64,000 nt of DNA, taken from NCBI GenBank assembly GCA_022647575.1, contig JALCKY010000008.1:8635-72634 (forward strand), written 5' to 3'. The notes below the pieces were generated by a model that saw only the letters and a program-made list of their open reading frames with translations, did not search any database and was not told the DNA's origin. Positions 14,389 through 59,112 of this stretch are shown piece by piece (position 1 is the stretch's first letter; every line of letters begins with the position of its first letter). Source of the stretch: Lachnospiraceae bacterium (GTDB lineage Bacteria; Bacillota; Clostridia; Lachnospirales; Lachnospiraceae). The position numbers were made by a program, and so were the translations under genes.

Positions 14389-14610
14389 CGAACGCAGAAT
14401 ATCGATGCGATGCGGCGCGGGTTCCAACTCCAGCCGCAGAGAATCTGTGTTCCGTGTGAGGGCGTCCGAGGAGGCCGGTACACGGCGAGGTACTTTCGAG
14501 CCGATGTACCGCTGCACGACGAGCGAGCGAAAGCGTCCCGAACGCGGAATACAGATGCGATGCGGCACGGGTTCCGATCCCAGCCGCCAAGAATCAATAT
14601 TCTGTGTGAG
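14389..14610. repeat. Structured intergenic element, copy 1: 84-bp core (14458-14541) overlapped at both ends by 72-bp direct repeats
   Basis: Direct repeats 14389-14460 and 14539-14610 (59/72 identical by hand alignment); core is 79/84 identical to the reverse complement of 30757-30840. Confidence 0.85.
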
Positions 14611-30732: not shown

Positions 30733-30864
30733 GCAGGGCGGACATATATTTCGTGATCGGGACGCTCCCGCTCGCTCGTCGTGCAGCGGTACATCGGCTC
30801 AATAATACCTCGCCGTGTACCGGCCTCCTCGGACGCCCTCTCACGAAACACATGCCCGCCCTGC
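30733..30864 (-). repeat. Structured intergenic element, copy 2
   Basis: Core 30757-30840 is the reverse complement of 14458-14541 (5 differences); closed by gcagggcgg..tttcgtga / tcacgaaa..ccgccctgc. Confidence 0.85.
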
Positions 30865-31068: not shown

Positions 31069-31262
31069 GCTGAACTATGCTCTCTGCAGGGACATTGACG
31101 AGGCGGGTGCTTAGCGAGGTCTTATCGAGCTTAGCACCCCTGCACGAGGATCTGAGCGGGAGCGCGCCCTGCAGAGAACATAATTCAGCAAGGAGCGTTC
31201 GATTGATGTCTTTCCGGGCTTAGCACCCCTGCACGAGGATCTGAGCGGGAGCGTTCCCTGCA
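31069..31262 (+). repeat. Structured intergenic element, copy 3 (divergent) plus partial duplicate
   Basis: Shares gaggc, gcgaggt, cgagc, ctgcacga and gagcgggagcg with copies 1 and 2; closing stem gctgaa..ctctgcaggg / ccctgcagag..ttcagc; 3' half duplicated at ~31218-31262. Confidence 0.75.
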
Positions 31263-31312
31263 CAGAATATGCAGTGAACTCTCACGCTCAGCAGATTATT
31301 CATCGACAAGCA

Positions 31313-52320: not shown

Positions 52321-55300
52321 TCAGTTCTTCTTTACACCCAGTGTTACGGTTTCCCCGTTGATTTTCCATTCCTTGACGTATCCGTCTGCCGCATCAAAGC
52401 TCAGACTGTCCGCAAGGACATCGTGCCGGATTTCTTCTGCATTGTCTTCCATGATCTTCTGAATCTTCTCATTGCCCTGCGCATAGACGCTGATGCGGTC
52501 CATGACTTCGAACCCGGCTTCCTTGCGCATCGTCTGGATCTTGGAAATCAGTTCGCGGACGAAGCCTTCTTCGATCAGCTCCGGCGTAAGCGTCTTGTCC
52601 AGGACGACCGTCAGGTCGGAATCGGACTGCGTCTCGAAGCCTTCCGTCTGCGCGGTGTCGATCAGAAGATCCTCTTCCGCAAGATCGATTTCATTTCCGT
52701 TGATATCCAGCTTCAGAAGTCCGGTATCCTTAAGCTCCTTCATGGCTGCATTTCCGTCAATGGAAGAAAGCGCCTTCTGGATGCCTCCGAGGAATTTTCC
52801 GTACTTCGGTCCGACTGTCTTGAGCTGCGGCTTGAAGGTGTAGGAAATGAAGCTTTCCGCGGAATCAACCTTCTCCATCTTCTTTACATTCAGCTCATCC
52901 AGGATGATGTCTTCGTAATACTCCGGAATCTCAAACTCCGATTTCACAAGCATGCGGGAAATCGGCTGGCGGTTCTTGATGTTGGCTTCATTTCTGGCGG
53001 CACGCCCGAGGATGACGATCTCCAGGACATGCTCCATGTTGGCTTCCAGATCTGCATCGATCCGCTTCTCATCGCAGACCGGGTAATCGCACAGATGGAT
53101 GCTTTCCGGTGCATTGGCATCGATGCCGCGCACCAGGTTCTGATAGATTTCCTCCGTCATGAACGGAATCATCGGAGCGGCCAGCTTTGCAGTCGTGACC
53201 AGGACCGTATAGAGCGTCATGTAGGCATTGATCTTGTCCTGCTCCATGCCCTTGGCCCAGAAGCGTTCACGGCAGCGGCGGACGTACCAGTTGCTCATCT
53301 CATCGACGAAATCGCCGAGAGCCTTGCCGGCCTCTGTAACCTTATAGGAGCCCATGTCCGTATCGACTTCCTTAATCGTCGTATTGAGGCGGGAAAGGAT
53401 CCATTTGTCCATGACCGGCAGTTTGTCGTATTCCAGCTGATATTTCGTGGCATCGAAGCTATCGATATCCGCATAAAGCACGTAGAAGGCATACGTATTC
53501 CACAGTGTCCCCAGGAATTTCCTCTGTCCTTCCTGGACCGCCTTGCCGTAGAACCGGCTGGGCAGCCACGGAGCGGAATTGACGATGAAATACCAGCGGA
53601 TCGCGTCGGCGCCGTACTTTTCAAGCGCTTCCATCGGGTCGACCGCATTTCCCTTGGACTTGCTCATCTTCTGGCCGTTCTCATCCTGGACAAGGCCCAG
53701 GACCATGACGTTCTTGTAGCACGGCTTGTTGAAGATCAGCGTCGAAATGGCATGCAGGGAATAGAACCATCCTCTTGTCTGGTCGACGGCTTCGGAAATG
53801 AAATTCGCCGGGAACTGTTTCTCGAACAGTTCTTTGTTTTCAAACGGATAGTGATGCTGCGCAAACGGCATCGAGCCGGAATCGAACCAGCAGTCGATGA
53901 CTTCCGGAACACGGTGCATCGGCTTCCCGCATTTCGGGCAGCGGATCGTGACCGCGTCAATGTACGGCTTATGCAGCTCGATATCGTCCGGGCAGTTGTC
54001 CGATCTTTCCTTCAGCTCCGCAATGGAACCGATGGCGGTCTGTTCGCCGCATTCGTCGCAGACCCAGATCGGCAGCGGCGTGCCCCAGTAGCGATTGCGC
54101 GAAAGCGCCCAGTCCTGGATATTTTCCAGCCAGTCGCCGAAACGGCCCTGGCCGATGCTCTTCGGGATCCAGTTGATTTCATTGTTGTTGCGGATCAGAT
54201 CTTCCTTGACATCCGTCATGCGGATGAACCAGGACTCGCGCGCATAGTAAAGCAGCGGCGTTCCGCATCTCCAGCAGTGAGGATAGTCATGCGTAAATTC
54301 CGGTGCCGAGAACAGCAGGTTCATTTCCTTCAGCTTGTCCAGGACGAGCGGGTCTGCCTTCTTGACAAATGTACCGTCCCACAGCGTGCCTCCGCATAAG
54401 TCGCCCTTGTCGTCGACCAGCTGAACCAGCGGCAGATCGTATTTGCGTCCGACGTTGGCATCGTCTTCGCCGAATGCCGGAGCGATATGGACGATTCCGG
54501 TACCGTCTGTCAGCGTGACGTAGGTGTCGCAGACCACATAATGCGCTTTTTTCTTCTTTGCCGCAGCTGCTGCCGCCGTGAAATCAAAGAGCGGTTCGTA
54601 CTCGCGGTATTCCAGATCTTTTCCTTTATAATGCTCAAGGATTTCCGCCCCGTCGCCGAGGATGGCCGGAACCAGTGCTTCCGCCATATAATAGGTGAAT
54701 TCACCGGACTTCACTTTGACGTAATCCGCTTCCGGATTCACGCAGAGCGCAACGTTGGAAGGAAGCGTCCAGGGAGTCGTTGTCCATGCCAGGAAATAGG
54801 CATCTTCGCCTTTGGCCTTGAATCTGACGATTGCGGACCTTTCCTTGACTTCCTTGTATCCCTGCGCGACTTCGTGAGAAGAAAGCGGGGTTCCGCAGCG
54901 CGGGCAGTAAGGCACGACTTTATAGCCCTGATACAGAAGTCCTCTGTCGAAGATCTGTTTCAGAGCCCACCATTCGGATTCGATGAAGTCGTTATGATAG
55001 GTGACATAAGGATTGTCCATGTCCGCCCAGAATCCGACCTGATCGGAGAAGGTGCGCCACATTCCTTCATACTTCCACACGGAGTCCTTGCACTTGCGGA
55101 TAAATGGATCGATTCCGTACTGTTCGATCTGATCTTTGCCGTCAAGGCCGAGCATTTTCTCAACTTCGATTTCCACGGGCAGTCCGTGGGTATCCCATCC
55201 GGCTTTTCTCGGAACGAGTTCCCCTTTCATTGCATGGTAGCGGGGAATCATATCCTTTATGACACGGGTCAGGACGTGGCCGATATGCGGCTTGCCGTTG

Positions 55301-55449
55301 GCTGTCGGCGGGCCGTCGTAAAACATGTAGGTCGGGCATCCTTCCCTTTGGTCTATGCTCTTCTGAAAAATATTGTTTTCTTTCCAGAATTTTGCCGTCT
55401 CTTTTTCGCGGTCGACAAAATCGAGGTTTGTATCTACTTTTTTATACAT
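52321..55449 (-). CDS. ileS: Isoleucine-tRNA ligase, type 2
   Basis: DGPPTANG-PHIGH, GWDTHGLP, WTTTPWTLP, KMSKS; ~1042 aa with IleRS2-type C-terminus; start at ATG 55449. Confidence 0.97.
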   Translation of the reverse strand: MYKKVDTNLDFVDREKETAKFWKENNIFQKSIDQREGCPTYMFYDGPPTANGKPHIGHVLTRVIKDMIPRYHAMKGELVPRKAGWDTHGLPVEIEVEKMLGLDGKDQIEQYGIDPFIRKCKDSVWKYEGMWRTFSDQVGFWADMDNPYVTYHNDFIESEWWALKQIFDRGLLYQGYKVVPYCPRCGTPLSSHEVAQGYKEVKERSAIVRFKAKGEDAYFLAWTTTPWTLPSNVALCVNPEADYVKVKSGEFTYYMAEALVPAILGDGAEILEHYKGKDLEYREYEPLFDFTAAAAAAKKKKAHYVVCDTYVTLTDGTGIVHIAPAFGEDDANVGRKYDLPLVQLVDDKGDLCGGTLWDGTFVKKADPLVLDKLKEMNLLFSAPEFTHDYPHCWRCGTPLLYYARESWFIRMTDVKEDLIRNNNEINWIPKSIGQGRFGDWLENIQDWALSRNRYWGTPLPIWVCDECGEQTAIGSIAELKERSDNCPDDIELHKPYIDAVTIRCPKCGKPMHRVPEVIDCWFDSGSMPFAQHHYPFENKELFEKQFPANFISEAVDQTRGWFYSLHAISTLIFNKPCYKNVMVLGLVQDENGQKMSKSKGNAVDPMEALEKYGADAIRWYFIVNSAPWLPSRFYGKAVQEGQRKFLGTLWNTYAFYVLYADIDSFDATKYQLEYDKLPVMDKWILSRLNTTIKEVDTDMGSYKVTEAGKALGDFVDEMSNWYVRRCRERFWAKGMEQDKINAYMTLYTVLVTTAKLAAPMIPFMTEEIYQNLVRGIDANAPESIHLCDYPVCDEKRIDADLEANMEHVLEIVILGRAARNEANIKNRQPISRMLVKSEFEIPEYYEDIILDELNVKKMEKVDSAESFISYTFKPQLKTVGPKYGKFLGGIQKALSSIDGNAAMKELKDTGLLKLDINGNEIDLAEEDLLIDTAQTEGFETQSDSDLTVVLDKTLTPELIEEGFVRELISKIQTMRKEAGFEVMDRISVYAQGNEKIQKIMEDNAEEIRHDVLADSLSFDAADGYVKEWKINGETVTLGVKKN

Positions 55450-55482
55450 ATAGTTACACCTCTCCAGAATATTAGAAACTAT

Positions 55483-55512
55483 ATTATAAGGTTGAACAGG
55501 CGGGATTGTCAA
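55483..55512 (-). promoter_or_regulatory. SigA promoter of ileS
   Basis: Perfect TTGACA-18-TATAAT ending 33 bp upstream of the start codon. Confidence 0.75.
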
Positions 55513-55534
55513 GAAAACCGGCCGCAGCCGTACT

Positions 55535-56097
55535 GCTTCGTGCCCCCGGAGCTCCCTTCCCATCTGTCATCCGCTGCCTGGGCAGGACAGAGCACACGCA
55601 GACACGCTTGCTTCGGTTCTTTCCGCGCTCGCCGATGGATGGGCTGCTCCGAAAACTCAGCGGGCTCTCCTGATCTTTTGTCAGGCAGCGTCAGGAGGCA
55701 GGGCCGCTATGACGATAGCGTCAGCTTCGTCGCCGTTTCTGCACGATGCGATGGGCTGCGCAGAATTGTCCGAAGCGGGCTCCTTCCCATGCATGTAACG
55801 GTCCTCCGTGAGAGGCAGTGCCTCTCACGGAGGATTGTTATCAATGAAGGGAGCCCGCAAGTTTTCGGAGCAGCCCATCCATCGGCGAGTGCAGAAACGG
55901 CAGAAGCAAGCGTGTCAGAGCGGCCCTGTCTCCTGAGGATGCCTGCTGACAGTCAAGGAAAGAGCCCGCTTCAGACAGTTCTGCGCAGCCCATCGCATCG
56001 CGCGGAAAGAACTGCGAAGCTGGCGCTATCGTCCGCGTGCGCTCTGCCCTGTCCGGGCAGCGGGCGAAAGGGGAGGGGTTCTCCGGGGGCGCAAAGC
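55535..56097. repeat. 563-bp rod-like imperfect palindrome
   Basis: Centre tcctccgtgagaggca-g-tgcctctcacggagga (55802-55834), plus nested perfect stems out to cccccggag/ctccggggg. Confidence 0.9.
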
Positions 56098-56117
56098 GGC
56101 ACGGAGGGCGGCAGCAA

Positions 56118-56150
56118 AAAACCTTCCCGGCGGATGCCTGGGAAGGTTTT
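56118..56150 (-). terminator. Terminator of the autolysin gene
   Basis: aaaaccttccc...gggaaggtttt. Confidence 0.75.
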
Positions 56151-56230
56151 AAGTTGAAGTTTTATGTTTCAGCCGCGGGCGTTTCCGGAAACCCGGATGC
56201 CTGCCGGCTGCAGCTTGATCCGATATTCAG

Positions 56231-59041
56231 TTAAAAGTACCAGTTCGATCCTACCTGGATATAATTGCCCGTCCGGTTAGTACTGCGGAAATTCAAATAA
56301 CCGTGATTTCTGATGCCCTGCGTCAAGCAATCGGAAACGGCCTGTTTTACAAAATCCGCCACATTTCCGTCAAGACGGCTCTTCCAGTAAGATGGATCGG
56401 AAATACTCGGTGAATAACAGAACTGTCCGGAAGCCGTAAGCTGTGCAAGTGCTGTCGTTCCATAGCCTCCGTAATTTAAATCCGCACGATTCATTACGCA
56501 TGAAATCACGGCGAGAGCGCCTTCGTAGGAAGTATCATCTTCCTGCGCCACGATGGCATAAATCTCATTCATCTCATCTGCCGTGTAGCCTGTCGTGTCC
56601 GTAGCATACGAAGTATAGAATCCCTGCGTGTCAAATCTAGTCAGGTTATACTTCTTGATGATCTCTTTAATCGAGTCATTGTATGTCGGATCCGATGCAT
56701 AGCCCTTCAGCGCTGTCTGAATGACTTTGTCCGTATCCGTCACGCCCTTCATATCCGGGTGGACGCCTGTCTTATAGGCTGCATAGTCTTCCATGCAGGA
56801 TTCAATATCGGAATAAGTCCTCATCTGCTCATACCCGTAAACATCGACTCCGTTTACGGACTGCGGCACGTTGCGGCTCACTGCCGTCCCGTTCCAATTG
56901 CTGACCCAGGTATCATTCAGAAGATCTGCGTTCATGCCGAGGATGTTGTTGTCCGCCGGCTGAATTCCGCCAATGGAAGCTCCCGAGAAAGAAAGCCATC
57001 CTGACTCCTGTATCGCCTGTGCAATCAGAACCGATCTGCAGAATCCGTATTCATACCACTCTTTGTTCGCTGCCTGCGCCAGGACATTGATGATCTGCGT
57101 CTGCGCGGAGGTGTCGCCCGCCGTCGCCTGCTTGCCGATCTCTGCCCAGTTGGACGCCTGTGTTGAACTGCAGACTATGTCGCTCAGGAAATTGCATGCC
57201 CAGCATGCTTTTGAATAATTGACATTGGAAATGATGATTCCTGTTGAGGAACTTGCGGCATTCACTGCCTTGCCATCCCCGATGTACATCAGAACGTGAT
57301 AGACAACTCCATTCTGCGCATAGAAGATCAGGTCGCCCGGAACCGCATCCTTGACAGCAATCTTCGTTCCTGCTTCCGCCTGTTCGTAAGAACATCTTGG
57401 AAGGGTGATTCCGAATGCCGCATAGATCTGCTGTACGTAGCCGGAACAGTCACAGCCATTGGTAAGACTTGTGCCGCCCCATACGTAGGGATTTCCGAGG
57501 AACTGTTCCGCATACGAGATGATCAGCTGCCGCAGTGCCGTCGACATTGAAGAAGGATCCTTCGTCGTCGTCAGCGTGTATCTGTAAGCCGCGTTCTGCG
57601 AACCTGCTATCAGTTCCTGAGCTGTTTTCAGATTGCTCTCACCGTTCTTTTCAACGAAAGCCGCCGCTTCATTTCCCATTAAAAGACATTTCCGGGAAAT
57701 AAATCCTCTGACATCTCCGGATTCAATGTAGACCCAATCCGAATCGGAGTCAGCCAGAACACAGCATAAGCCGTTTGTCTCCAAGGTACCGATGATTCTG
57801 CTTGTCGTGCTCTTGCCTTCACGGACATTGACGTAGACATTGCCCTGTGCTACCGCATAAACTTTGTCCACTCTTGTGAAGGTCGGTATTCTGTAATTCG
57901 AGTAGTTCGTCTGGTTTTTGTTTGAATCAGTAGAATTTGTGCTGGACTGTGCAGCCGTCTTATTGGAATAGTAAAGTACGGTGCGCGTTGTCTCTCCTGT
58001 TATGAAGCCCGAAACTTCAGATTCATCCGCGTCATATCCGCTGATATCCGGCGATGAAACAGAATATTCTTCGCCGTACGAATAAGTGCCGTCATAGGAA
58101 TCCAGGACGTTTCCGTCTTCGTCTTCATATAGAATGGTCAGAGAATACTGATTGACAGAATATGTAACATTGAATGAGGTATCCTGCGCTCCCATGATGC
58201 CGGAGACAGCGGTCTGATCCGCCGTCATTCCTTCGAGTGCGGGTGAGGGGATGCTGTAGGCGTCGCCCTGTCTGACAATTTGGGTTGCCGGTGCGGAAAC
58301 AGCTGCTCCGTCCGTCCCGATATAATTGACCGTCAGCAGATAACTGTTCAGCCTGTAAGTGACGTCTGCGGAAATATCCTCCGCATCCATGGTTCCGCTT
58401 ACATTTGCCGTATCAGGGGTGTAACCCGCAATTGCCGGGCTTGCTTCCTGATAGCTCTCACCTTTGCGCAGCTGCGCCGTGTAAGATTCCGCTGCCTGGG
58501 TTCCGTCTTCATAGAGATACCGGATCGTAAGCGTATGCTGCTCATTTTCCGTATAGACGAATGTGACAGTTGTATCGGAACTTATCGTGCCGAAGATTAC
58601 CGAATCCTGCGGTTCATATCCCGGAATATAAGCCGGAAGCACTTCGTAATCGGAGCCTTCCTGATATTCCTCCGCTGTCGGATCCAGCAATGCAGCGCCC
58701 TGTTCGTTTACATATTCGATCTTCAGTGTGCAGGTATTGGCTGCGGACGCATCATCTTTTGAATCAGAATCTGCCGATGAACCGGAATCTGCCGGTACAG
58801 AATCTGTCAGTACAGAGTCTGTCGCAACTGGTGCTGCCGTCTCTGTCTGCAGATCAGAAGAATTGCCTGATGAATCCGACGCTTCCCCATCGGATGGTGA
58901 CGATGTGCCAACCTGTATTGCCGCACTTGATGCGGCGTTCCCTGCCACTGCTTCTTCAGCCCAGATACTGCACGGGCTCAGGAGAGCGAAAGTCAAACCG
59001 GCTGCGAAAATCATTCCCGCCAGCTCCTTCCGCCTGATCAT
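56231..59041 (-). CDS. Secreted multi-domain cell-wall hydrolase (4x MucBP, SH3, NlpC/P60, GH73-like, SleB/Hydrolase_2-like)
   Basis: Signal peptide; four ~62-aa MucBP-like repeats; VNVREG SH3; LGNPYVWGG/DCSGYV; AQAIQESGW..NNILGM..YASDPTY; AIVAQE..ALAVISCVMNR..GQF. Confidence 0.88.
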   Translation of the reverse strand: MIRRKELAGMIFAAGLTFALLSPCSIWAEEAVAGNAASSAAIQVGTSSPSDGEASDSSGNSSDLQTETAAPVATDSVLTDSVPADSGSSADSDSKDDASAANTCTLKIEYVNEQGAALLDPTAEEYQEGSDYEVLPAYIPGYEPQDSVIFGTISSDTTVTFVYTENEQHTLTIRYLYEDGTQAAESYTAQLRKGESYQEASPAIAGYTPDTANVSGTMDAEDISADVTYRLNSYLLTVNYIGTDGAAVSAPATQIVRQGDAYSIPSPALEGMTADQTAVSGIMGAQDTSFNVTYSVNQYSLTILYEDEDGNVLDSYDGTYSYGEEYSVSSPDISGYDADESEVSGFITGETTRTVLYYSNKTAAQSSTNSTDSNKNQTNYSNYRIPTFTRVDKVYAVAQGNVYVNVREGKSTTSRIIGTLETNGLCCVLADSDSDWVYIESGDVRGFISRKCLLMGNEAAAFVEKNGESNLKTAQELIAGSQNAAYRYTLTTTKDPSSMSTALRQLIISYAEQFLGNPYVWGGTSLTNGCDCSGYVQQIYAAFGITLPRCSYEQAEAGTKIAVKDAVPGDLIFYAQNGVVYHVLMYIGDGKAVNAASSSTGIIISNVNYSKACWACNFLSDIVCSSTQASNWAEIGKQATAGDTSAQTQIINVLAQAANKEWYEYGFCRSVLIAQAIQESGWLSFSGASIGGIQPADNNILGMNADLLNDTWVSNWNGTAVSRNVPQSVNGVDVYGYEQMRTYSDIESCMEDYAAYKTGVHPDMKGVTDTDKVIQTALKGYASDPTYNDSIKEIIKKYNLTRFDTQGFYTSYATDTTGYTADEMNEIYAIVAQEDDTSYEGALAVISCVMNRADLNYGGYGTTALAQLTASGQFCYSPSISDPSYWKSRLDGNVADFVKQAVSDCLTQGIRNHGYLNFRSTNRTGNYIQVGSNWYF

Positions 59042-59112
59042 GGCATCACTCCCTTCTTTAATTATGTAAAGCAGTATAGCATAAACATATGAAAAAGTCA
59101 TTAAAACGGCTG

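What the first reader, a model, noticed from the sequence alone, without database searches (positions are those of the whole stretch)
55535..56097. 563-bp rod-like palindrome with polarity-swapped internal loops
Seen: nested perfect stems (ttctttccgcgc/gcgcggaaagaa, gatgggctgc/gcagcccatc twice, agcgggctct/agagcccgct, ccgtttctgcac/gtgcagaaacgg, and a 16-bp apical stem). The mismatched loops are not random. In the outer half, gacacgcttgcttc faces gaagctggcgctatcgtc; in the inner half, gacgatagcgtcagcttc faces gaagcaagcgtgtc. The same loop pair thus appears once in each polarity, so top and bottom strands each fold into a rod carrying the same loop motifs. It lies between the autolysin terminator and the ileS promoter, i.e. 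outside both predicted transcripts. Inference: a strand-symmetric recognition substrate (cruciform or ssDNA element for a HUH transposase or nucleoid protein) or an independent rod-shaped RNA.
Basis: seen in the sequence. Interest (0 to 1): 0.68.

Follow-up and report, generated by a model that had tools for sequence, protein, structure and literature searches.

The report
Nested foldback palindrome repeat family
The 563-bp "rod" is real, but it is one copy of a small, species-restricted family of long hairpin-forming DNA repeats between genes; its swapped loop pattern is one of several arrangements that flip between strains, so it is a by-product of DNA recombination and not a designed symmetric signal.

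Summary
Observation confirmed. Window 55528-56104 folds into one ~577-nt rod on either strand (RNA z -21, DNA z -18). Two independent metagenome assemblies contain the identical sequence, so it is not an assembly artefact. It is not unique: the genome holds 8 intergenic loci (18 arms) of the same family. The family was not found in 52 genus-mates, 400 genomes of the order, GTDB representatives, plasmids or phages.

Each arm is a ~112-bp unit in two variants, X and Y, that differ by fixed bulges. X always faces the complement of Y. Long copies hold two nested layers plus a locus-unique outer inverted repeat of 70-115 bp per arm.

The "polarity swap" is not a fixed design. A ~95% ANI strain carries the same-polarity isomer at one locus, and other strains show core inversion, unit loss or gain, and deletions.

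At the tyrS locus one outer arm is the conserved 3' coding end of the upstream gene. The other arm is its inverted copy and holds the tyrS -35 box, so the palindrome grew by copying flank.

There is no Rfam match and no internal promoter. The only HUH (RAYT) gene has different REPs of its own.

Best reading: foldback-type palindromic repeat DNA shaped by processes acting on the DNA itself. The scan has noted hairpin repeats with locus-specific stems on other genomes before.

The parts
55483..55512 (-). ileS promoter (TTGACA-18-TATAAT, 12/12), 15 bp from the left end of the rod. It is context, not part of the repeat.
   Evidence: the ileS identity of ORF 52324-55449 comes from Pfam
55528..55600 (.). 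Left locus-unique outer arm. It pairs with 56035-56104 (about 78% complementary) and has no other copy in the genome.
   Evidence: (I4, I5)
55601..55666 (+). Outer-layer X arm: m1 GACACGCTTGCTTC, stem S1 GTTCTTTCCGCGC, TCGCC bulge + GATG, stem S2 GATGGGCTGC, TCCGAA + AACTCA bulge, stem S3 GCGGGCT.
55667..55710 (.). Left spacer: an m4-like tail, a copy-variable segment, and the conserved stem CAGGGCCGCT. It pairs with 55917-55962.
   Evidence: (I3)
55711..55781 (+). Inner-layer Y arm: m1 GACGATAGCGTCAGCTTC, S1 GCCGTTTCTGCAC, GATG + C bulge, S2, GCAGAATTG bulge + TCCGAA, S3.
55782..55851 (.). Apex: m4 tails and a 22-bp tip hairpin (55796-55817 / 55819-55840) with the centre at 55818.
   Evidence: (I6)
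55852..55916 (-). Inner-layer X arm, read on the minus strand. 57 nt of it are identical in five copies of the family.
55917..55962 (.). Right spacer, partner of 55667-55710.
   Evidence: (I3)
55963..56033 (-). Outer-layer Y arm, read on the minus strand. Its S1 carries the same variant as the outer X arm, so the two covary.
56035..56104 (.). Right locus-unique outer arm, partner of 55528-55600.
56118..56150 (-). Intrinsic terminator of the upstream autolysin-like gene: an 11-bp perfect stem followed by a T run on the minus strand. It is context, not part of the repeat.
   Evidence: (I13)

Best explanation
The rod is one copy of a species-restricted, low-copy family of long quasi-palindromic (foldback-type) intergenic DNA repeats. 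A two-layer hairpin was once dispersed to at least seven intergenic sites. Its arms are tandem ~112-bp units of two variants, X and Y, that differ by fixed bulges. Since then each copy has been remodelled by processes known to act on inverted and direct repeats in DNA. (1) Recombination or template switching between arms inverts whatever lies inside. Because X differs from Y, this flips the polarity of a layer and produces the swapped-loop pattern. (2) Unequal exchange between the direct units adds or removes units. (3) Arm-to-arm templated copying keeps stems paired, giving apparently compensatory changes, and extends the palindrome outwards into flanking DNA, which creates the locus-unique outer arms. 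Shown here: family membership, modular anatomy, isomers, unit gain and loss between strains, and one outer arm derived from flanking coding DNA. Inferred: the molecular route (RecA-type recombination versus replication template switching), how the element first spread, and that any present role is incidental. Possible incidental roles are a hairpin at the 3' end of upstream transcripts or a barrier ahead of the next promoter.
For: - Dispersed family: 8 loci in the genome, 83-90% identical among the long copies. All are intergenic.
- Restricted range: none in 52 genus-mates. The 17-base gapped arm pattern hits 18 times in G000, against 2 single chance hits in 400 other genomes of the order. A 19-mer gave only scattered single hits, read as chance, in unrelated taxa among GTDB representatives and IMG/VR. 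No hit in plasmids or phages.
- Modular X/Y arms and chimeras.
- Isomers and rearrangements between strains: L090 has Y Y | rcX rcX at the locus where G000, L104 and L108 have the swapped form. L096 has the core inverted plus a deletion. L107 has a 325-bp deletion that leaves a solo arm. L101 has 3 units on the left and 2 on the right where G000 keeps only a remnant. One assembly of the ileS locus lacks one 115-bp unit.
- Outer arms are unique to each locus and unrelated to the core.
- tyrS locus: right arm 218949-218995 lies inside the last codons of the aldo/keto-reductase gene, whose C-terminus is conserved in the G027 orthologue. Left arm 218340-218382 is its inverted copy (score 28 against shuffles 14 +/- 2.3, 0 of 2000) and holds the tyrS -35.
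- Stem S1 covaries on both sides at 6 of 48 pairs, while the bulges are invariant.
- Literature: template switching between imperfect inverted repeats homogenises arms, inverts spacers and expands repeats (PMC8604942, PMC13100816, PMC8794818; abstracts). Palindromes seed inverted duplications centred on themselves in E. coli (PMC3315005).
- Hairpin repeats in genus-mates also invert in situ and take nested inserts at the apex.
Against: - In the one informative strain pair the rod diverges less (15/577 = 2.6%) than four-fold degenerate sites of the flanking genes (6.1% and 15.9%). This hints at constraint beyond neutral DNA, although local divergence is patchy.
- The X/Y bulges are invariant in all layers and copies, and 57 nt of the inner X arm are identical in five copies. 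Arm-to-arm copying alone should erase such differences.
- Three of the four long copies end 0-21 bp from the -35 of ileS, tyrS and rnpB. That could be function rather than tolerance.
- No target-site duplication, no partner transposase and no clean empty site were found, so the original spread is unexplained.
- SbcCD is present, so persistence of 560-690-bp near-palindromes with 1-4-nt tips needs explaining.
Confidence: 0.62

Rival explanations
1. The rods are functional RNA structures. They are transcribed as the 3' ends of the upstream genes, and their long bulged hairpin acts as an exonuclease block, an RNase III site or a read-through barrier that shields the next promoter.
For: 7 of 8 copies lie just after a gene's 3' end. 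At three long copies the rod starts within or at most 25 bp after the stop codon, with no separate terminator. Paired stems covary while the bulges are invariant. Divergence is lower than at four-fold sites. REP/ERIC-type repeats are known to act this way (established knowledge; PMC3733652 abstract).
Against: The copy under study is shielded from upstream transcription by a good intrinsic terminator and has no promoter of its own. Both polarities of each layer occur and flip between strains, so no single RNA sequence is preserved. No Rfam family matches. Between strains, 5 of 15 substitutions break pairs and only 1 pair is compensated.
Confidence: 0.15
2. The rods are currently mobile non-autonomous elements (MITE/REPIN-like), moved as single-stranded hairpins by a hairpin-recognising enzyme such as a HUH/RAYT-type or other transposase that inserts into the tips of existing hairpins. 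This would explain the nesting and the locus-specific stems.
For: Dispersed copies share the whole two-layer architecture. The flanks are inverted rather than direct, as expected for insertion into a palindrome centre. In genus-mates another hairpin repeat carries a nested insert exactly at its apex. A RAYT gene exists in the genome.
Against: There are only 8 loci, at 83-90% identity, so no recent burst. The RAYT is flanked by different REPs (63 copies) that are absent from the rods. There is no target-site duplication, no autonomous partner with the same ends in the genome and no filled/empty polymorphism among the strains seen. All differences are internal rearrangements. At tyrS one 'stem' is old coding DNA.
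Confidence: 0.13
3. The rods are DNA-level regulatory or architectural sites. They act as cruciform-prone supercoil sinks or nucleoid-protein sites placed just upstream of strong housekeeping promoters (ileS, tyrS, rnpB).
For: Rod ends lie 15 bp (ileS), 0 bp (tyrS, with the -35 inside the arm) and 21 bp (rnpB) from the -35 boxes. The DNA fold is very stable. BIMEs bind gyrase and IHF in E. coli (established knowledge).
Against: The fourth long copy and the shorter copies show no such promoter. Genus-mates run the same ileS promoter arrangement with no rod, or with an unrelated hairpin repeat. Strains with large deletions in the rods exist.
Confidence: 0.08
4. The rod is an assembly artefact, such as a fold-back chimera.
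For: Palindromes are a known artefact class. One MEGAHIT contig differs by one 115-bp unit.
Against: The palindrome is imperfect, with fixed bulges. It lies in the middle of its contig. Two independent JGI assemblies give the identical sequence, and a 95% ANI strain has it with 15 substitutions. Seven other loci share the family.
Confidence: 0.01

Closest known systems
REP / BIME clusters and REPIN-RAYT systems of Proteobacteria
   Same: Intergenic palindromic repeats, mostly after gene 3' ends. Units occur in alternating orientation and form mosaic clusters, with conserved mismatches inside the hairpins. A REP-RAYT system even co-exists in this genome.
   Different: The units here are ~112 bp, not 20-40 bp. 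There are 8 loci, not hundreds. There is no GTAG/CGTC tag. The genome's RAYT is flanked by an unrelated REP. The rods are 560-690 bp with nested layers.
Bacterial MITE-like hairpin repeats (ERIC, Correia/NEMIS, RUP/BOX, RPE)
   Same: Non-coding, dispersed elements that fold over their whole length, often co-transcribed with neighbours, and restricted to one species or genus.
   Different: There is no target-site duplication and no parent IS. The rods are several times longer, are built of tandem arm units, and carry locus-specific outer arms.
Foldback (FB) elements of eukaryotes
   Same: Long terminal inverted repeats made of tandem sub-repeats whose number varies between copies. The whole element snaps back into a long hairpin.
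   Different: FB elements are eukaryotic and often associated with a transposase-bearing partner. No homology or enzyme link exists here, so the likeness is architectural only.
Quasipalindrome template-switch mutagenesis and palindrome-centred inverted duplication (E. coli, yeast)
   Same: These processes explain arm homogenisation, spacer inversion, multi-base 'compensatory' changes and outward growth of inverted repeats (PMC8604942, PMC13100816, PMC8794818, PMC3315005).
   Different: They have been described for short inverted repeats or engineered palindromes. Here the outcome is a natural family of ~600-bp nested palindromes, with 50-115 bp of copied flank.
Viroid-like / Obelisk rod RNAs
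   Same: A rod-shaped fold of several hundred nucleotides with internal loops, on either polarity.
   Different: Those are circular RNA replicons without a DNA copy. This is chromosomal DNA in several loci, with no ORF and no ribozyme or Rfam match.

Membership tests
REP/REPIN-RAYT | Short (about 20-40 nt) palindromic REP units, usually in tens to hundreds of copies | tested here: not met
   Arms are ~112-bp units. There are 8 loci and 18 arms in 3.0 Mb.
REP/REPIN-RAYT | The cognate RAYT (Y1 HUH) gene is flanked by the same REP | tested here: not met
   The single Y1_Tnp gene (C2:309570-309902) is flanked by GAACCACGGGGACGGGGGTGGTGGTTC, which has 63 copies and does not occur in the rods.
MITE | Direct target-site duplication at both ends | tested here: not met
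   The flanks of all four long copies are inverted complements of each other, not direct repeats.
MITE | Terminal inverted repeats shared with an autonomous IS | tested here: not met
   No further genomic copies of the terminal motifs outside the 8 loci. None in plasmids or phages. ISfinder was not available.
Foldback-type element (architecture only) | Long inverted arms composed of tandem sub-repeats of variable number | tested here: met
   Two units per arm in G000. Strain L101 has three on the left and two on the right. One unit is lost in L080.
T-box leader (upstream of ileS/tyrS) | Match to the Rfam T-box model | tested here: not met
   No T-box hit at E<=1 in 55300-56400, and none at the gathering threshold in the tyrS locus L042.
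Invertible promoter switch (inverton) | Inverted repeats flanking a promoter, with a nearby invertase | tested here: not met
   Inversion isomers exist. No promoter lies inside the rod, and the neighbouring genes are ileS and an autolysin-like gene, not a recombinase.
Viroid-like/Obelisk RNA | Circular RNA replicon with no DNA counterpart, plus a ribozyme or Oblin ORF | tested here: not met
   It is chromosomal DNA at 8 loci. No Rfam ribozyme match. Only short chance ORFs are present. RNA circularity is not testable here.
Intrinsic terminator | GC-rich hairpin followed directly by a U tract | tested here: not met
   No T run follows the rod on either strand. A separate canonical terminator lies at 56118-56150.

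The most novel reading that the evidence does not exclude
These rods are self-extending palindromes. Once seeded between genes they keep copying flanking DNA across their axis, even the last codons of a gene. In doing so they can create new regulatory sequence: at tyrS the -35 box sits in the inverted copy of the upstream gene's coding end. The fixed X/Y bulges would then be selected interruptions that keep a ~600-bp palindrome viable in an SbcCD-positive cell. On this reading the genus, with hundreds of related-in-kind hairpin repeats, would be a natural system for studying palindrome growth, flip-flop inversion and promoter birth.
Probability: 0.2. Interest if true: 0.7.

Novelty: new variant of a known kind. 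Interest (0 to 1): 0.45.

Why it matters
Near-perfect palindromes longer than about 150-200 bp are regarded as barely tolerable in bacteria that have SbcCD. This genome has SbcCD and still keeps four palindromes of 560-690 bp. They are stable enough to be identical in independent samples, yet they visibly flip, shrink and grow between strains. That makes them a natural record of how inverted repeats evolve: arm copying, spacer inversion and outward extension into genes and promoters. They also serve as a caution. Covarying stems and mirror-image loop patterns in such elements can arise from DNA mechanics and need not indicate a structured RNA or a designed recognition site.

Tried and rejected
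- Rfam at a permissive threshold gave only a spurious plant miRNA-precursor hit, caused by any long hairpin. There was no T-box.
- An exact 19-mer scan of GTDB representatives and IMG/VR gave only scattered single hits, read as chance, in unrelated taxa.
- BLAST against plasmids and phages found nothing.
- An nhmmer profile of the abundant ~200-nt hairpin repeat of genus-mates ('family R') found nothing in G000, so the short word similarity I noticed is not homology.
- The outer arms were tested as decayed third layers of the same family. None scored above shuffles, so the idea was rejected.
- The first search with family R used the wrong coordinates and hit coding DNA. It was repeated correctly.
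- A motif scan with loose mismatches flooded the output and added nothing beyond BLAST.
- A look-up of the QueT protein, meant to find strains with an empty site, returned nothing.
- The promoter I read by eye upstream of ykuD did not pass the scan, so I dropped it.

Full report
**1.

The palindrome runs from 55528 to 56104 with its centre at 55818.

- As RNA, the plus strand folds into one unbranched rod of -408.6 kcal/mol and the minus strand into one of -392.6 kcal/mol. The z-scores are -21.3 and -21.6, and none of 100 dinucleotide shuffles came close.
- With DNA parameters the fold is the same rod at -222.5 kcal/mol, z -17.6.

- ORF 52324-55449 (minus) is a class I isoleucyl-tRNA synthetase.
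- ORF 56234-59101 (minus) is an NlpC/P60 + glucosaminidase + MucBP wall protein.
- A canonical terminator lies at 56118-56150.
- The only sigma-70-like site in 55350-56300 is a 12/12 TTGACA-18-TATAAT at 55512-55483 on the minus strand, 15 bp from the rod.

**2. It is not an artefact**

The exact IleRS protein is encoded on 17 public contigs. Two independent JGI assemblies (259 kb and 15 kb contigs) are identical to the window through the whole rod. One MEGAHIT contig lacks exactly one 115-bp unit. Three short-read contigs end at the rod's centre or spacer. A strain with about 95% ANI (L103) carries the rod with 15 substitutions.

**3. It is a repeat family**

BLAST of the rod against its own genome (3.03 Mb, 11 contigs) finds eight loci.

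- Four are long: this copy, C2:218446-218884, C2:248934-249400 and C1:305770-306225.
- Two are single hairpins of about 220 bp.
- Two are remnants.

All eight are intergenic. Seven of them lie just after a gene's 3' end.

The family was not found elsewhere:

- none in 52 genus-mates;
- an arm pattern that hits 18 times in G000 gives two single chance hits in 400 other genomes of the order;
- a 19-mer gives only scattered single hits, read as chance, in unrelated taxa across GTDB representatives and IMG/VR;
- plasmids and phages give nothing.

**4. Anatomy**

Each arm is a unit of about 112 bp: m1, stem S1, m2, stem S2 (GATGGGCTGC), m3, stem S3 (GCGGGCT), m4, a copy-variable stretch and a closing stem (CAGGGCCGCTCT).

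Units come in two variants:

| Module | X | Y |
|---|---|---|
| m1 | GACACGCTTGCTTC | GACGATAGCGYCRGCTTC |
| m2 | a TCGCC bulge | a single C bulge |
| m3 | AACTY bulge after TCCGAA | GCAGAAYTG bulge before TCYGAA |

In every hairpin an X arm faces the complement of a Y arm, so the same asymmetric bulges recur. Chimeric arms exist at C6:86116.

The long copies have two layers. In this window the order is X, Y, apex, rcX, rcY.

In an alignment of nine layers, 31 of 48 pairs are invariant and six pairs of S1 change on both sides. The bulges never vary.

**5. The swap is an isomer, not a design**

A metagenome scan recovered contigs of strains 93-99.7% identical to G000 at five of the loci.

- queT/ykuD locus: two ~99% strains have the G000 order. 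The ~95% strain L090 has Y Y | rcX rcX. Its outer layer is the exact reverse complement of G000's, while the inner layer and the unique outer arms are unchanged.
- tyrS locus: L096 has the core inverted relative to the outer arms and reduced to one arm.
- rnpB locus: L107 has lost 325 bp and keeps a solo X arm.
- C2:331443 locus: L101 has a full element with three units on the left and two on the right, whereas G000 keeps a remnant.

Inversion between arms and unequal exchange between units are therefore ongoing. A layer's polarity depends on its history.

**6. The outer arms come from the locus**

Each long copy is extended by an inverted repeat of 70-115 bp per arm, 73-78% complementary. These arms occur nowhere else in the genome and do not resemble the core.

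At the tyrS locus the right arm (218949-218995) lies inside the last codons of an aldo/keto-reductase gene. That gene's C-terminus aligns to the end with the G027 orthologue, so the arm is old coding sequence. The left arm (218340-218382) is its inverted copy: score 28 against 14 +/- 2.3 in shuffles, with 0 of 2000 as good. The left arm also contains the -35 hexamer of an 11/12 tyrS promoter.

So here the palindrome grew outwards by copying flank. This fits published work.

- Template switching between imperfect inverted repeats homogenises arms, inverts spacers and expands the repeats (PMC8604942, PMC13100816, PMC8794818).
- Palindromes in E. coli seed inverted duplications centred on themselves (PMC3315005).

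**7. Context in the genus**

Gene order, autolysin then ileS, is conserved.

- In G023, G030, G022 and G027 the spacer is 130-230 bp with no rod.
- G036, G025 and G033 have an unrelated ~260-nt hairpin directly upstream of the same promoter, and G022 keeps only its right arm.

That hairpin belongs to 'family R', with more than 120 candidate copies per genome. It has conserved bulged arms and a hypervariable but always paired tip. It has no profile similarity to G000. Orthologous R copies are inverted in situ between species, and one carries a nested insert at its apex.

The same genome also has another small family on locus-specific stems (earlier finding e1-5280522; sequences seen). It also has a genuine REP-RAYT system whose REPs differ from the rods. 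The scan has noted hairpin repeats with locus-specific stems in many other genomes.

**8. Evidence pointing to function**

- In the L103 comparison the rod differs at 2.6% of sites, against 6.1% and 15.9% at four-fold sites of the two flanking genes. Local divergence is patchy, and only one strain pair is informative.
- Of the 15 substitutions, about 6 fall in unpaired positions, 1 pair is compensated, 2 keep pairing and 5 break pairs. The folding energy is unchanged.
- Three long copies end 0-21 bp from the -35 boxes of ileS, tyrS and rnpB. The fourth shows no such promoter.
- SbcC and SbcD are present.

These points keep the RNA-hairpin and DNA-architecture rivals alive. They do not outweigh the isomer and flank-copy evidence.

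**9. Limits**

- No clean empty site was found.
- How the family first spread is unknown.

**Verdict**

The structure is real and striking. It is best read as a new, unusually long and nested variant of palindromic intergenic repeat DNA, whose symmetry features are products of recombination and template copying.

Noticed in passing
G000 C2:308070-311402 (L058); not in the window: A REP-RAYT system. A 254-aa Y1_Tnp (HUH) gene is flanked by perfect 28-nt REPs, GAACCACGGGGACGGGGGTGGTGGTTC, two on one side and one inverted on the other. There are 63 such REPs genome-wide, many as inverted doublets.
   Followed up: partly
L052, L054, L057, L059-L078 (genomes G036, G025, G033, G022): 'Family R' is a ~200-nt hairpin repeat with ends ACAGTTCAGACAGGCTGT and more than 120 candidate copies per genome. 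Its arms are conserved and bulged, and its apical stem differs in every copy yet always pairs. One copy sits directly upstream of the ileS promoter, at the same spot as the rod in G000.
   Followed up: partly
L059 vs L121-L123; L066 vs L124-L126: Orthologous family R copies are inverted in place between sister species. One copy carries a ~100-bp nested insert at its apex, and that insert is itself inverted between G033 and G022. G025 has a deletion allele bounded by a 5-bp repeat.
   Followed up: partly
G000 C2:218319-218347 (L042:3319-3347): The -35 box of the 11/12 tyrS promoter lies in a sequence that is an inverted copy of the last codons of the upstream aldo/keto-reductase gene. This may be a case of a promoter element born from copied coding DNA.
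   Followed up: partly
window 55300-56400 and L042: Neither ileS nor tyrS has a detectable T-box leader, which is unusual for Bacillota. ileS has a short leader behind a perfect consensus promoter.
   Followed up: no
G000 C1:305326-305662 (L043:3326-3662): The RNase P RNA gene (Rfam 286 bits) lies next to rod copy C1a. A promoter-like site is at C1:305697-305669, 21 bp from the rod end.
   Followed up: no
window 14458-14600, 30757-30860, 31089-31270; also G000 C6:69900-70500: A second small repeat family (core GGGACGCTCCCGCTCGCTCGTCGTGCAGCGGTACATCGGCTCG...), already noted by the scan. Two of its copies flank the 45-bp remnant of the rod family at C6:70137-70181.
   Followed up: no
L080 (ENA ERZ27250307 contig) vs window 55963-56080: One public assembly of the same locus lacks exactly one 115-bp unit, between the two GATGGGCTGC cores of the right arm. 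This is either a real unit-loss allele or an assembler collapse.
   Followed up: no
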